From Eledone cirrhosa (Eukaryota), in assembly GCA_964016885.1 (NCBI GenBank), contig OZ024763.1:26846001-26910000 (forward strand): a stretch of DNA of 64,000 bases, read 5' to 3'. The notes below the pieces were generated by a model, which did not search any database, had not been told where the DNA came from, and worked only from the letters and a program-made list of their open reading frames with translations. Of the stretch, positions 4,775 through 64,000 are shown piece after piece; position 1 is the stretch's first letter, and each line of letters begins with the position of its first letter. Position numbers and translations under genes: made by a program.

Positions 4775-5116
4775 GTGAGGAAGATGAAAGACCAAGGGAG
4801 CACCCCTTCTCTGTGCTCCTGAGGAGAAGGGTTGCACACTTTTTTCGGGGGTGTGTGCGACCCCCCAAGGCGCCTCCTCTCTATTGAGGATTTTGTTAAA
4901 AATTTTATTTTTTGTTATATCTTATTTTATTTTTATATTTTGTTATTGCCTCCTCCTTATTGAGGACGCCTTTTTGTGTAAACTCCCCCCTTTGTACTTG
5001 TCCCACTTTTGATGCCCTAGTGGCAAATAAAAGAAATATATCTATATATATATATATATAATATTATAATGAAATGACAGGAGGCTGGACTTGTGTAAAT
5101 CCTTGAAAGGTTTATT

Positions 5117-5174
5117 ATACTATGATCATTTCAATGACCGGGTTCCGTATGAATCCGGTGATATCATCAGGTAT
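5117..5174 (-). ncRNA. Type I hammerhead ribozyme fold
   Basis: Minus strand ATAC-CTGATGA-[tATcACCGGaTTC atacg GAAcCCGGTcATt]-GAAA-TGATCA-TA-GTAT-AATAAA; palindromic stem III ATGATCAT. Confidence 0.75.
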
Positions 5175-5852
5175 TCGAAATATAATAAATGAATGTAATA
5201 GATAAATTCCATGGGGCTGAAAATCGAAGACCCGAGGACGACCGCCATCTAGCATATTCCACTTTTGCCGGTCGCCCTCAAGTGAGGGGGCTAAAGCTTA
5301 TAGTGTGCTACTACCGGTCAAATAGAGGAAAACAGAAAGGGAGAGGAAGATAAGTCAGCGTTAATATCATGCCACAAGAAAAAAGACAGAAAGAAGGGGG
5401 AAGAGAAGGAAGAAAAGGAAGAAGGAGAAAAGTCAGGGTTAATGTCGAGCTACAAGAAGAAAGACAGAAAGAAAGAGGAAGAAAGGTCGGTACTAATGTC
5501 AAACTACAGTCAGGCCAGGAATGGCGCGAAAAGAATTTATTCTAAGGGACCCGAATATTAAACTAGTTACTGTGGTTACCCCCGATTGAACCAGGGATAC
5601 ATATTTTAGCACCTTACTGCGCCCTTCTTACCCATCACCAAGTTACCATACTATATATATATATATATATACACACACGGACCATACGGAATTGACCAGC
5701 TCTATCCAGTGGTGAACCTCAAACCTGAATATATATATATATATATATATATATATATATATATATATATATATATATATATATATATATATATATATAT
5801 ATATATATATATATATATATATATATATATATGTATATATATATATATATAA

Positions 5853-61500: not shown

Positions 61501-62065
61501 GGTGTTGTTGGTAGTGGTATTGTTGTTGTTGTTGTTGGTGGTGGTGTTGTTGGTAGTGGTATTGTTGGTAGTGTTGTTGGTGGTGGTGTTGTTGGTAGTG
61601 GTATTGTTGGTAGTGTTGTTGGTGGTGGTGTTGTTGGTAGTGGTATTGTTGGTAGTGGTATTGTTGTTGTTGTTGTTGGTGGTGGTGTTGTTAGTAGTGG
61701 TATTGTTGTTGTTGTTGTTGGTGGTGGTGTTGTTGGTAGTGGTATTGTTGGTAGTGTTGTTGGTGGTGGTGTTGTTGGTAGTGGTATTGTTGGTAGTGTT
61801 GTTGGTGGTGGTGTTGTTGGTAGTGGTATTGTTGGTAGTGGTATTGTTGTTGTTGTTGTTGGTGGTGGTGTTGTTGGTAGTGGTATTGTTGGTAGTGTTG
61901 TTGGTAGTGGTATTGTTGGTAGTGTTGTTGGTGGTGGTGTTGTTGGTAGTGGTATTGTTGGTAGTGTTGTTGGTGGTGGTGTTGTTGGTAGTGGTATTGA
62001 TGTTGGTGTTGTTGTTGATGTTGGTGGTGCTGTTGTTGTTGGTAGTGTTGTTGATGTTGATATTG
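58522..62065. repeat. Compound (GTT/GGT/AGT)n trinucleotide array with higher-order modules
   Basis: Direct inspection; yields spurious >1000-aa low-complexity ORFs. Confidence 0.95.
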
Positions 62066-64000
62066 TATGTATAGGTGTGTGTGTATGTATATATGTATGT
62101 AAATGTGTGTATAGGTGTATGTATGTATTTGTGTATATATATATATATATATGTATATATATATATGCATGTATATATGTATGTATGTTTATATGTGTAT
62201 ATATACATATATATGTATATATATATATGTATGTATATATGTATGTATGTTTATATGTGTATATATATATGTGTGTATGTATATATGTATGTATGTTTAT
62301 ATGTGTATATGTATATATATGTATATACATATATAAATGTATATATATATATATGTGTATATATATATATAGATGTGTGTATAGGTGTATGTGTGGTGTA
62401 TACTTTGTATGTGTATATATTTTGTATATGTATGTATTTATATATATTATATATCCAACAGCATACGTTAGCTTGCCCACAACCAGAGCTCCGATTATGT
62501 TGTACTACTTTCTTGTATATATATATATATATATATATATATATATATAAATATATATATATATATATATAACGAAGGAAATGTGGTAAGGAACCAGGTG
62601 GACCATAACGCACCAAAGTACTCAATACTTGGGGTAGTAGAGTGGGTAATAGGAACCAGTAAGACCCCGACGGCTGAGCTCAAGCCGTTTCGACGGCTAA
62701 TTCTGTACTGAATTAGCCGTCGAAATGGCTTGAGCTCAGCCGTCGGGGTCTTACTTGTTCCTATTACCCTCTCTACTACCCTAAGTATTGAGTACTTTGG
62801 TGCGTTATGGTCCACCTGGTTCCTTACCACATTTCCTTCGTTATATATATATATATATATATATATATATATATTTATATATATATATATATATATATAT
62901 ATACAGAGAGAGAGAGAGGAAGGAACATAATGAGAAAAATATGAGTGACTTATATATGTGTATATATATATATATATATATATATATATATATATATCTA
63001 TATATATATATATATATATCTATATATATATATATATATATATCTATATCTATATATATATATATATATATATATATATATTTATATATATATATGTATG
63101 TATGTGTATAGATGTATGTGTACTACAACACCCCCATCTGTCCTTATTCAAATCTTCTTACCTCTCATTATCCATTCCAGAACCTTCTCTCATGTCCTTC
63201 ACATCCCATAATGACAAAAGACACGACACAACTTCTAACTTCTCCGCTGCATTCTCTACACCATATAACTGTATAACTGTATGTAAGCAGGATGCAGTTT
63301 CCTTGGCCTGCCTGGTAGATCAGTAACCCCACCCCACCCCAGTTCCAGTACTGAGTTAGTCTATGTACACCTGTGTCCAACCCTTGCTAGCAGAGGCAGG
63401 GCAAAATGGATCTTAAATGATGATGATAATGATGATGATGATATATATATATATATATATATATATATATATATACACCTCTACTTCTCTCTCTCTCCAC
63501 ACACACACACATATATATTGTTATTTTTGTTTACCTGTTACATATGTATATATATATATATATATATATATATATATATATATATATATATATATCTATA
63601 TATATATATGTATATGTGTATGTATATATGTATATATATATATATTTATATGTATATATATATATATATATATATATATGTGTGTATATGTGTATGTATA
63701 TATGTATATATATATATATATATATATATATATATATATATATATATATATATATATATATATATATATATATGTGTGTGTATATGTGTATGTATATATG
63801 TATATATATGTATGTATATGTATGTATATATATTTATATATATATATAGCAGAGGCAGGGAAAATGGATCTTAAATGATGATGATAATGATGATGATGAT
63901 ATATATATGTGTACATGTGTATGTATATATGTATATATATGTATGTATGTATATATGTATGTATATGTATTTATATGTAAATATAAATATATATATATGT

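What the first reader, a model, noticed from the sequence alone, without database searches (positions are those of the whole stretch)
5100..62845. Swarm of small (TA)n-embedded elements carrying type I hammerhead ribozymes from about ten unrelated sequence families
Seen directly: complete folds (stem I - CUGANGA - stem II - GAAA - stem III - NUH - stem I') at 5117-5174(-), 7053-7118(-)/7240-7305(+), 7590-7634(-)/7753-7797(+), 12966-13036(-)/13164-13234(+), 17682-17739(-), 25684-25754(-), 26652-26692(+), 30342-30409(-), 51933-52000(-) and 57386-57423(+). Variant or truncated ones occur near 6535, 8231, 10040, 13675, 14215, 26182, 26868, 43134/45198 and 57301. Stems differ completely between families while core nucleotides and pairing are kept. 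Many are followed within a few nt by AATAAA, and the elements end in (TA)n. Established: Penelope-like element pseudo-LTRs and retrozymes carry minimal type I hammerheads. Inference: a diverse non-autonomous, ribozyme-bearing retroelement population that targets TA microsatellites, at about one motif per 3 kb, with no RT/GIY-YIG gene in the window.
Basis: partly seen in the sequence, partly recalled or inferred. Interest (0 to 1): 0.85.

Follow-up and report, generated by a model that had tools for sequence, protein, structure and literature searches.

The report
Hammerhead-tipped Penelope stubs in octopod genome
The hammerhead ribozyme motifs are real and most are the end pieces of truncated Penelope-like jumping genes sitting in TA repeats of a likely octopod genome, which carries an estimated quarter of a million such motifs; the design is already known, and whether these motifs cut RNA is untested.

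Summary
The motifs are real: 12 perfect-core type I folds against 0.08 in shuffles. The 'non-autonomous' reading mostly fails. Eight hammerhead families (A, B, C, G, H, I, J, O) lie elsewhere in the genome 0.2-1.9 kb downstream of a Penelope-like (PLE) RT + endonuclease ORF, mostly Hydra-clade. The window copies are 5'-truncated 3' ends. Only family F looks non-coding; five small families stay unlinked.

The swarm is genome-wide: 51 folds in 600 kb of evenly spaced samples, about 250,000 overall (160,000-360,000). The window is about twice the average.

Head-to-head pairs have one arm with the tail and one without in 137 of 143 classifiable cases, and share rare alleles. This suggests two primings on one uncut RNA. 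Only 2 of 303 arms start at the cleavage site.

PLE hammerheads, TA targeting, inverted arms and one-sided tails are published. This scan reported similar fold-back PLE stubs in other genomes. New here: the scale, the variant cores and the counts. Verdict: new members of a known kind.

The parts
5060..5561 (-). Family F short-end arm, hammerhead 5117-5174; 3' part of a 2.6-2.7 kb non-coding PLE-like unit (candidate non-autonomous element)
5680..5742 (+). Family F tail stub (long end)
6452..6570 (-). Minimal-hammerhead element truncated inside the catalytic core; parent not found
6918..7355 (.). Family B head-to-head pair: long arm 6918-7160(-), hammerhead 7053-7118; short arm 7201-7355(+), hammerhead 7240-7305; 3' end of a Hydra-type PLE
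7373..8044 (.). Family C pair: long arm 7373-7690(-), short arm 7699-7948(+), hammerheads 7590-7634 and 7753-7797, extra stub 7993-8044; 3' end of a PLE with a 1040-1142 aa ORF
8225..8300 (+). Family I, hammerhead with U4A core and non-palindromic stem III; 3' end of a Hydra-type PLE
8477..8590 (-). J-related subfamily, 3' half of a hammerhead
10023..10236 (.). Family J pair (short arm -, long arm +); carries only the 3' half of the J hammerhead; 3' end of a Hydra-type PLE
11755..11949 (.). Family J pair
12708..12912 (.). B-type fold-back centred on the stem III palindrome
12928..13358 (.). Family A pair: short arm 12928-13099(-), hammerhead 12966-13036; long arm 13101-13358(+), hammerhead 13164-13234; 3' end of a Hydra-type PLE
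13398..13561 (.). Family J copy
13621..13780 (-). B-type short arm; hammerhead 13664-13729 with a point change in GAAA
13880..14050 (.). Family J pair
14150..14290 (-). Family K, degenerate hammerhead with most of stem II missing; parent not found
17592..17859 (.). Family D fold-back, hammerhead 17682-17739(-); related to E; parent not found
25560..25846 (.). Family A long arm(-), hammerhead 25684-25754, plus a short inverted stub
26177..26215 (+). Minimal hammerhead core with weak stem I; parent not found
26590..26742 (.). Family G: inverted tail stub plus short arm(+), hammerhead 26652-26696; 3' end of a Hydra-type PLE
26840..26900 (+). Degenerate hammerhead 3' half with palindromic stem III; parent not found
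29776..30110 (.).
30306..30431 (-). Family E short arm, hammerhead 30342-30409; parent not found
30425..30595 (+). Tail of an H-related subfamily
42926..45290 (.). Family H: inverted long arm 42926-43254(-) joined to a 2.03-kb 3' UTR 43262-45290(+) cut off at the ORF end; hammerheads 43134-43182 and 45198-45246 (U4C core); Hydra-type PLE with a 4697-nt tandem unit
51897..52003 (-). Family E short arm, hammerhead 51933-52000
57274..57354 (-). Family I copy (U4A core)
57384..57516 (+). Family O long arm, hammerhead 57386-57423; 3' end of a Hydra-like PLE
57768..57954 (.). Family A pair folded at the stem III palindrome
62571..62842 (.). Family J pair with two long arms

Best explanation
Most of these elements are the hammerhead-bearing 3' ends of 5'-truncated, protein-coding Penelope-like retrotransposons lying in (TA)n tracts, and their mirror-image form likely arises when both nicked target strands prime reverse transcription at two fixed sites on one uncut element RNA. 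Shown: each of eight hammerheads lies in sense in the 3' UTR of a PLE ORF; each of nine families has two fixed 3' ends, a short one 19-164 nt past the cut site and a long one 58-174 nt further on; in tandem copies this tail runs into the next unit; head-to-head pairs combine one long and one short arm and share rare alleles; insertions almost never begin at the cut site. Inferred: the GIY-YIG endonuclease nicks both strands of a TA tract; one cDNA starts at each site; both stop early, often at short palindromes, and are joined head to head; each insertion leaves TA tracts on both sides, so later copies nest beside it. The hammerhead rides along in the stubs. It is likely kept by selection in the active parents, probably to process tandem transcripts as a dimer through its palindromic stem III, or with help from the PLE protein.
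For: ORF linkage as loci with the hammerhead segment in sense downstream of the ORF end: A 27/30; B 6/6, C 24/25, G 2/2, H 23/23, I 8/8, J 2/3, O 5/8 (some loci are the same place fetched twice, so J rests on one place and B on three). Long ORFs with RT and endonuclease motifs: L221 1142 aa, L231 794 aa, L081 600 aa in a 4697-nt tandem. At least 150 GIY-YIG matches over the cut-off, from 10,597 candidates. Two-peaked 3' ends in nine families. The tail continues into the ORF in J, C and H tandems. Pairs: 137 long+short, 4 long+long, 2 short+short, 17 unclassifiable of 160; 41 of 44 in families whose query stopped at the short end (p = 8e-10 against 50%), or 36 of 39 without G, whose query held a tail stub. 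Mismatch between arms at shared polymorphic sites against random pairing: A 6/146 vs 44%, J 39/615 vs 24%, C 6/202 vs 28%, O 20/103 vs 29%. 2 of 303 unselected arms start at the cut site. B-type alignment: 92% of cells paired, 8 pairs with two-sided changes, 0 of 500 shuffles as high on covariation. 21 of 27 motif groups have a palindromic stem III. In vitro, a PLE cuts and extends both strands, starts at two sites bounding the tail and does not need hammerhead cleavage (PMC11167929).
Against: No parent ORF was found for D/E, K or the motifs at 6535, 26182 and 26868, and F has none. In family B the arms differ at 20 of 39 polymorphic sites, only slightly below random (63%), which fits two templates better. 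Gene conversion between adjacent inverted arms could also homogenise them. The alignment holds related, descriptor-selected sequences, so its shuffle counts are not probabilities. The 27 motif groups are not independent, and the outer stem III pair is imposed by the descriptor. Minimum-energy folding of single motifs often does not give the hammerhead fold. No cleavage was measured.
Confidence: 0.8

Rival explanations
1. The elements are an independent population of non-autonomous, ribozyme-driven mini-elements (retrozyme-like) with their own fixed ends, spreading through cleaved or circular RNA.
For: Strong 5' hot spots: A and J, 89 of 137 unselected arms within 20 nt. The young short A copies are 97-100% alike but only 85-91% like the ORF-linked copies sampled. 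F is a 2.6-2.7 kb pLTR + non-coding body + hammerhead unit. True tandem retrozymes of 459-491 nt exist elsewhere in this genome.
Against: Eight families continue upstream into PLE ORFs. Young A copies with longer upstream sequence exist (L270 97%, L329 98%). Most J copies lack half the ribozyme. Arms do not start at the cut site. No hammerhead tandem lies in the window.
Confidence: 0.12
2. Same PLE origin, but the inverted arm is made by one cDNA folding back and copying itself (self-priming), or is homogenised later by gene conversion, rather than by a second priming on the RNA.
For: Junctions often sit on short palindromes (A hot spot; stem III at 12762 and 57906). The arms share alleles. 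Self-priming was proposed for PLE inversions (PMC3846280, passages).
Against: Fold-back of a long-end cDNA predicts that the long arm always reaches at least as far 5' as the short arm. The short arm reaches further in 27 pairs and the long arm in 28 (the rest are ties, many at the edge of the reference). A fold-back copy would also have to stop at a fixed family-specific site.
Confidence: 0.25
3. The palindromes and motifs are artefacts of assembly (chimeric fold-back reads) or chance matches in AT-rich sequence.
For: Fold-back chimeras are a recalled long-read artefact, and the region is very low in complexity.
Against: The two arms end at two different, family-specific sites with different flanks. 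Motif counts are over 100 times the shuffled counts. Contigs of three public runs carry family F hammerhead sequence.
Confidence: 0.02

Closest known systems
Hydra clade of C-terminal EN+ Penelope-like elements (Craig et al. 2021, PMC8557442)
   Same: RW[K/R] and DKT motifs, CxCX5C linker, CxxC and CxH motifs in the endonuclease, hammerheads, (TA)n insertion, partial tandems, inverted 5' copy, tail at one end.
   Different: Units are longer (4.7 kb for H, 3' UTRs of 0.2-1.9 kb, against 'generally <3 kb'). Tails are 60-174 nt against 30-40 bp. Several cores are variant. The passages read describe only a small number of Hydra families outside cnidarians.
Minimal and atypical type I hammerheads of metazoan PLEs (Cervera and de la Pena 2014, PMC4209133)
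   Same: Many heterogeneous families per genome, mostly solo motifs from truncated PLEs, pairs 100-700 bp apart on opposite strands, long stem II, palindromic stem III, U3-A8 core variant.
   Different: About 250,000 estimated here against about 2,000 (S. mansoni), 4,000 (coelacanth) and 9,000 (X. tropicalis); descriptors differ, so the comparison is rough. U4A and the J core CUGAGAA were not in the parts read.
Poseidon PLE of Anolis (PAc) in vitro (Frangieh et al. 2024, PMC11167929)
   Same: Two RT start sites bounding the tail, both target strands cut and extended, AT-rich targets, uncut RNA as template.
   Different: The genomic statistics here (one start site per arm, shared alleles) were not in the parts read; different clade.
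Non-LTR retrozymes (Cervera and de la Pena 2020, PMC7229834; Li et al. 2026, 10.64898/2026.07.22.740005)
   Same: Type I hammerheads, PLE relationship, no ORF in the local copy.
   Different: Retrozymes are head-to-tail tandems of 150-450 nt units, each with a hammerhead, expressed as circles. The window elements are solo or head-to-head stubs with coding parents. Retrozyme-type tandems occur elsewhere in this genome.

Membership tests
EN+ Penelope-like element | Single ORF with RT and C-terminal GIY-YIG endonuclease upstream of the hammerhead segment | tested here: met
   Met in the genome for A, B, C, G, H, I, J, O, not inside the window. Pfam RVT_1 + GIY-YIG was seen only for the Neptune-like ORF of L085; the L221, L231, L081, L084, L232 and L236 ORFs gave no Pfam hit and rest on motifs and tblastn.
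EN+ Penelope-like element | Partial tandems forming pLTRs | tested here: met
   H 4697-nt tandem; C tandem in L223 and J pLTR in L231.
EN+ Penelope-like element | Inverted 5'-truncated copy next to the 5' end, with an optional tail at one end | tested here: met
   160 head-to-head pairs; 137 of 143 classifiable have the tail on one arm only.
EN+ Penelope-like element | Coding parent for families D/E, F, K and the motifs at 6535, 26182, 26868 | tested here: inconclusive
   No consistent ORF link in the loci held. F units of 2.6-2.7 kb lack an ORF over 133 aa.
Hydra clade PLE | RWK-like motif and DKT in place of DKG | tested here: met
   RWR and DKT in the J (L231) and H (L081) parents, the only two with this region held.
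Hydra clade PLE | CxCX5C linker; CxxC and CxH motifs in the endonuclease | tested here: met
   CxCX5C in the parents of A, B, G, H and I; CxxC and CxH in A, H, I and J. The one J copy lacks the last Cys of the linker.
Hydra clade PLE | Placement in the Hydra clade of an RT tree with Repbase references | not testable with these tools
   No named PLE reference sequences were available; the listed homologues were unnamed or hypothetical.
Neptune/Nematis clade PLE (family C) | CX2-5CxxC linker between RT and endonuclease | tested here: met
   Present in the L221 ORF; which of the two clades was not resolved.
Type I hammerhead ribozyme | CUGANGA / GAAA / NUH core with stems I-III | tested here: met
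   12 perfect folds against 0.08. H (U4C), I (U4A) and J (CUGAGAA) depart from the core.
Type I hammerhead ribozyme | Compensatory changes in the stems | tested here: met
   8 pairs with two-sided changes in 22 B-type motifs; the stem III palindrome is kept through a double change between H and a sister subfamily.
Type I hammerhead ribozyme | Self-cleavage at the NUH site | not testable with these tools
   Needs a cleavage assay; genomic arms do not record the cut.
Non-LTR retrozyme | Head-to-tail tandem of short units, each with a hammerhead | tested here: not met
   None in the window; present elsewhere in the genome (L086, L097, L223).
Non-LTR retrozyme | No coding parent | tested here: not met
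   Eight families have coding parents; F may meet it.
Non-LTR retrozyme | Circular RNA intermediates | not testable with these tools
   No RNA data could be laid.

The most novel reading that the evidence does not exclude
This cephalopod genome holds about a quarter of a million intact hammerhead folds, roughly one per 12 kb and far denser than the animal counts found in print. Its insertions record how PLEs build inverted copies: one protein dimer primes both target strands at two start sites of a single uncut RNA. Recently active families with U4A, U4C and CUGAGAA cores would be natural ribozyme variants that work only as dimers or with the element's protein.
Probability: 0.3. Interest if true: 0.7.

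Novelty: new member of a known kind. Interest (0 to 1): 0.42.

Why it matters
How PLEs form tandem and inverted insertions and what their hammerheads do are stated open questions (PMC8557442, PMC11167929). This genome offers very many young insertions from at least nine families with long, easily scored tails, near-intact parents, and a clear prediction: one start site per strand, one template. It also supplies natural hammerhead core variants for cleavage assays, and suggests that many short fold-back repeats in octopod TA tracts are PLE ends. The biology itself is a known type.

Tried and rejected
1. Family A as a fixed-start 258-nt mini-element: rejected after longer copies and the parent ORF were found.
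2. The 5' hot spots as the transcript start of a 5' pLTR: not supported, because the upstream pLTR of the one ORF-bearing J copy begins about 85 nt before the hot spot; this is one example only.
3. Ribozyme-cut RNA as the template: 2 of 303 arms start at the cut site.
4. Family H as a 2-kb non-coding element: it is a 3' UTR cut off at the ORF end.
5. Expression: no RNA holder listed, so no evidence either way; laid contigs only.
6. A search with the A tail returned nothing although the sequence is in the window (the tool skips very common words).
7. PDB sequence searches with two PLE ORFs found nothing.
8. In one search the family I segment was entered in the wrong orientation; that row was dropped and redone.
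9. Rfam miRNA and tRNA matches come from palindromes, TA runs and tRNA-derived SINEs and were set aside.
10. No paper on twin priming in PLEs was listed.
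Full report
OBSERVATION. A descriptor scan (stem I, CUGANGA, stem II, GAAA, stem III, NUH) found 12 perfect-core folds in the window against 0.08 in local dinucleotide shuffles, and 14 against 1.2 with one core mismatch. 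The 13th (57386) has a very short stem II and was read directly. One Rfam hammerhead match appears among the 150 of 213 rows listed: 26652-26696, 31.7 bits, under the gathering score.

HOST AND SCALE. The window lies in a 3.0-Gb assembly. A host amidohydrolase exon is 76% identical to an Octopus bimaculoides protein; the other named hits are 58% or less. The host is therefore likely an octopod cephalopod. In 60 evenly spaced 10-kb stretches the same type of scan found 51 canonical folds (five shuffles: 0, 0, 1, 0, 0) and 11 variant-core folds (shuffles 0-2); the window gave 11 canonical folds. That is 0.85 per 10 kb (bootstrap 0.53-1.22), or about 250,000 (160,000-360,000) in the genome. The window is about twice the average, so it is not a special locus.

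PARENTS. A GIY-YIG search gave 150 scored matches, all over the cut-off, from 10,597 candidates. Following each window family into the genome linked its hammerhead segment, in sense, to the 3' end of a PLE ORF:
- A: 27 of 30 loci, about 0.85-1.45 kb downstream.
- B 6/6, C 24/25, G 2/2, H 23/23, I 8/8, J 2/3, O 5/8. Some loci are the same place fetched twice, so J rests on one place and B on three.
- The unlisted fold-back at 29776-30110 is likewise the end of a Neptune-like PLE (11/13) but has no canonical core.
The 2-kb stretch 43262-45290 is the 3' UTR of H, cut off at the ORF end; H occurs as a 4697-nt tandem. The parents of A, B, G, H, I and J carry the Hydra-clade motifs listed in PMC8557442 (section 11 read): RWR and DKT where that region is held, CxCX5C, CxxC and CxH. 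C has a CX4CxxC linker. Pfam does not recognise these ORFs, and no tree with named references could be made. No PLE ORF lies in the window. F differs: two 2.6-2.7 kb units run pLTR, non-coding body, hammerhead, with no stop-free stretch over 133 aa and one weak tblastn hit (E = 0.001) against the PLE proteins held. D/E, K and the motifs at 6535, 26182 and 26868 stay unlinked in the loci held.

ANATOMY OF AN INSERTION. All nine families measured have two 3' ends: a short end 19-164 nt past the cut site and a long end 58-174 nt further on. In J, C and H tandems the tail runs into the next ORF. 496 of 537 arm ends touch a TA run (lenient criterion, no null). Of 160 head-to-head pairs, 137 are long+short, 4 long+long, 2 short+short and 17 unclassifiable. 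Queries for A, J and O selected a long arm. In the other families the count is 41 of 44 (p = 8e-10 against the 50% maximum for independent arms), or 36 of 39 without G, whose query held a tail stub. Arms of a pair agree at polymorphic sites far more than random pairs in A (6/146 mismatches vs 44%), J (39/615 vs 24%) and C (6/202 vs 28%), less so in O (20/103 vs 29%), and barely in B (20/39 vs 63%). Either arm can reach further 5' (27 short, 28 long). 5' ends cluster at family hot spots, for example inside loop II of J, so most J copies keep half a ribozyme. Only 2 of 303 unselected arms start at the cut site.

MECHANISM. Shown: parentage, two fixed ends, one end per arm, shared alleles, TA flanks, uncut template. 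Inferred: the endonuclease nicks both strands of a TA tract; each 3' end primes at one of the two sites on the same RNA; the cDNAs stop early and are joined head to head, often at short palindromes. This matches the Anolis PLE in vitro, which cuts and extends both strands, starts at two sites bounding the tail, is predicted to dimerise and does not need hammerhead cleavage (PMC11167929, parts 1-2 of 4 read). Fold-back self-priming (PMC3846280, passages) and later gene conversion remain rivals, and family B argues against a strict single template.

THE RIBOZYME. The fold looks maintained across subfamilies. In 22 B-type motifs 92% of cells pair and 8 pairs change on both sides, while partners slid by 1-3 columns pair 35-55% (related, descriptor-selected rows). 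N7 varies freely, and 21 of 27 motif groups have a palindromic stem III suited to dimer cleavage. Variant cores mark whole families: U4C (H), U4A (I), CUGAGAA (J) and U3-A8 (a Neptune-like family outside the window). U4C is known from a viroid with reduced activity (PMC3088659, passages) and U3-A8 from Schistosoma PLEs (PMC4209133, parts 1-2 of 4). Activity is untested here.

COMPARISON AND NOVELTY. Solo and opposite-strand hammerheads from truncated PLEs (PMC4209133), TA targeting by Hydra elements, inverted 5' copies and one-sided tails (PMC8557442, passages; PMC3846280, passages) are all published. Active PLE families are annotated in O. vulgaris, and the word 'ribozyme' does not occur in that paper's main text (PMC13282606, passages). 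Retrozymes differ by being hammerhead tandems (PMC7229834, passages; 10.64898/2026.07.22.740005, part 1 of 5 and passages); such tandems occur elsewhere in this genome but not in the window. The highest counts I saw were 120,000 retrozymes in axolotl and about 9,000 minimal hammerheads in X. tropicalis. Searches for hammerheads with octopus or cephalopod terms listed no paper describing this population. The library is partial, and I did not read the supplements of PMC4209133 and PMC8557442, which could hold cephalopod entries. Earlier notes of this scan describe similar fold-back PLE stubs in other genomes.

VERDICT. Real, explained, and of a known kind. The added value is the scale, the family diversity, the core variants and a quantified rule of one start site per arm. 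Interest 0.42.

Noticed in passing
window 1313-4774 (+): Uninterrupted 1153-aa APE + RT + zf-RVT ORF, an L1/Tx1-like LINE; its 3' end runs into the TA tract that holds family F.
   Followed up: partly
window 24836-25531 (+) and 31816-32226 (-): Host exons: an amidohydrolase (deacetylase EF_0837-like, 76% to O. bimaculoides) and a zinc-transporter dimerisation domain.
   Followed up: partly
window 46822-49055 (-): Broken LINE reverse transcriptase in two reading frames.
   Followed up: no
window 35562-42855: Tandem array of a 77-bp unit, about 95 copies at 97% identity; the unit resembles dispersed pieces near 46110-46296 and 49395-49463.
   Followed up: no
window 21869-24205, 19073-21606, 52030-52870, 54700-55500, 58500-62070: Further minisatellites and triplet-like arrays.
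   Followed up: no
window 26345-26546: Another common TA-flanked fold-back family (12 of 60 random loci) with no hammerhead read and no parent ORF found.
   Followed up: partly
L097 8161-9690, L223 254-2660, L086 6795-7333: Tandem hammerhead repeats with 459-511 nt spacing: retrozyme-type arrays in the same genome.
   Followed up: no
L085, L086, L090, L093 (3' UTR): A Neptune-like PLE family with an intact 938-aa ORF whose hammerhead has the U3-A8 core variant.
   Followed up: partly
L231 1262-1401 and 4581-4800: Full-length J hammerhead: core CUGAGAA, large loop II, 5-bp stem III with a palindromic loop, GUC cut site; J is the most frequent family sampled (42 arms in 600 kb).
   Followed up: partly
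window 6597-6791, 27112-27610, 55738-56460, 17225-17544, 33563-33880, 49202-49889, 51311-51608: Two abundant SINE-like families, one tRNA-derived; unrelated to the hammerhead elements.
   Followed up: no
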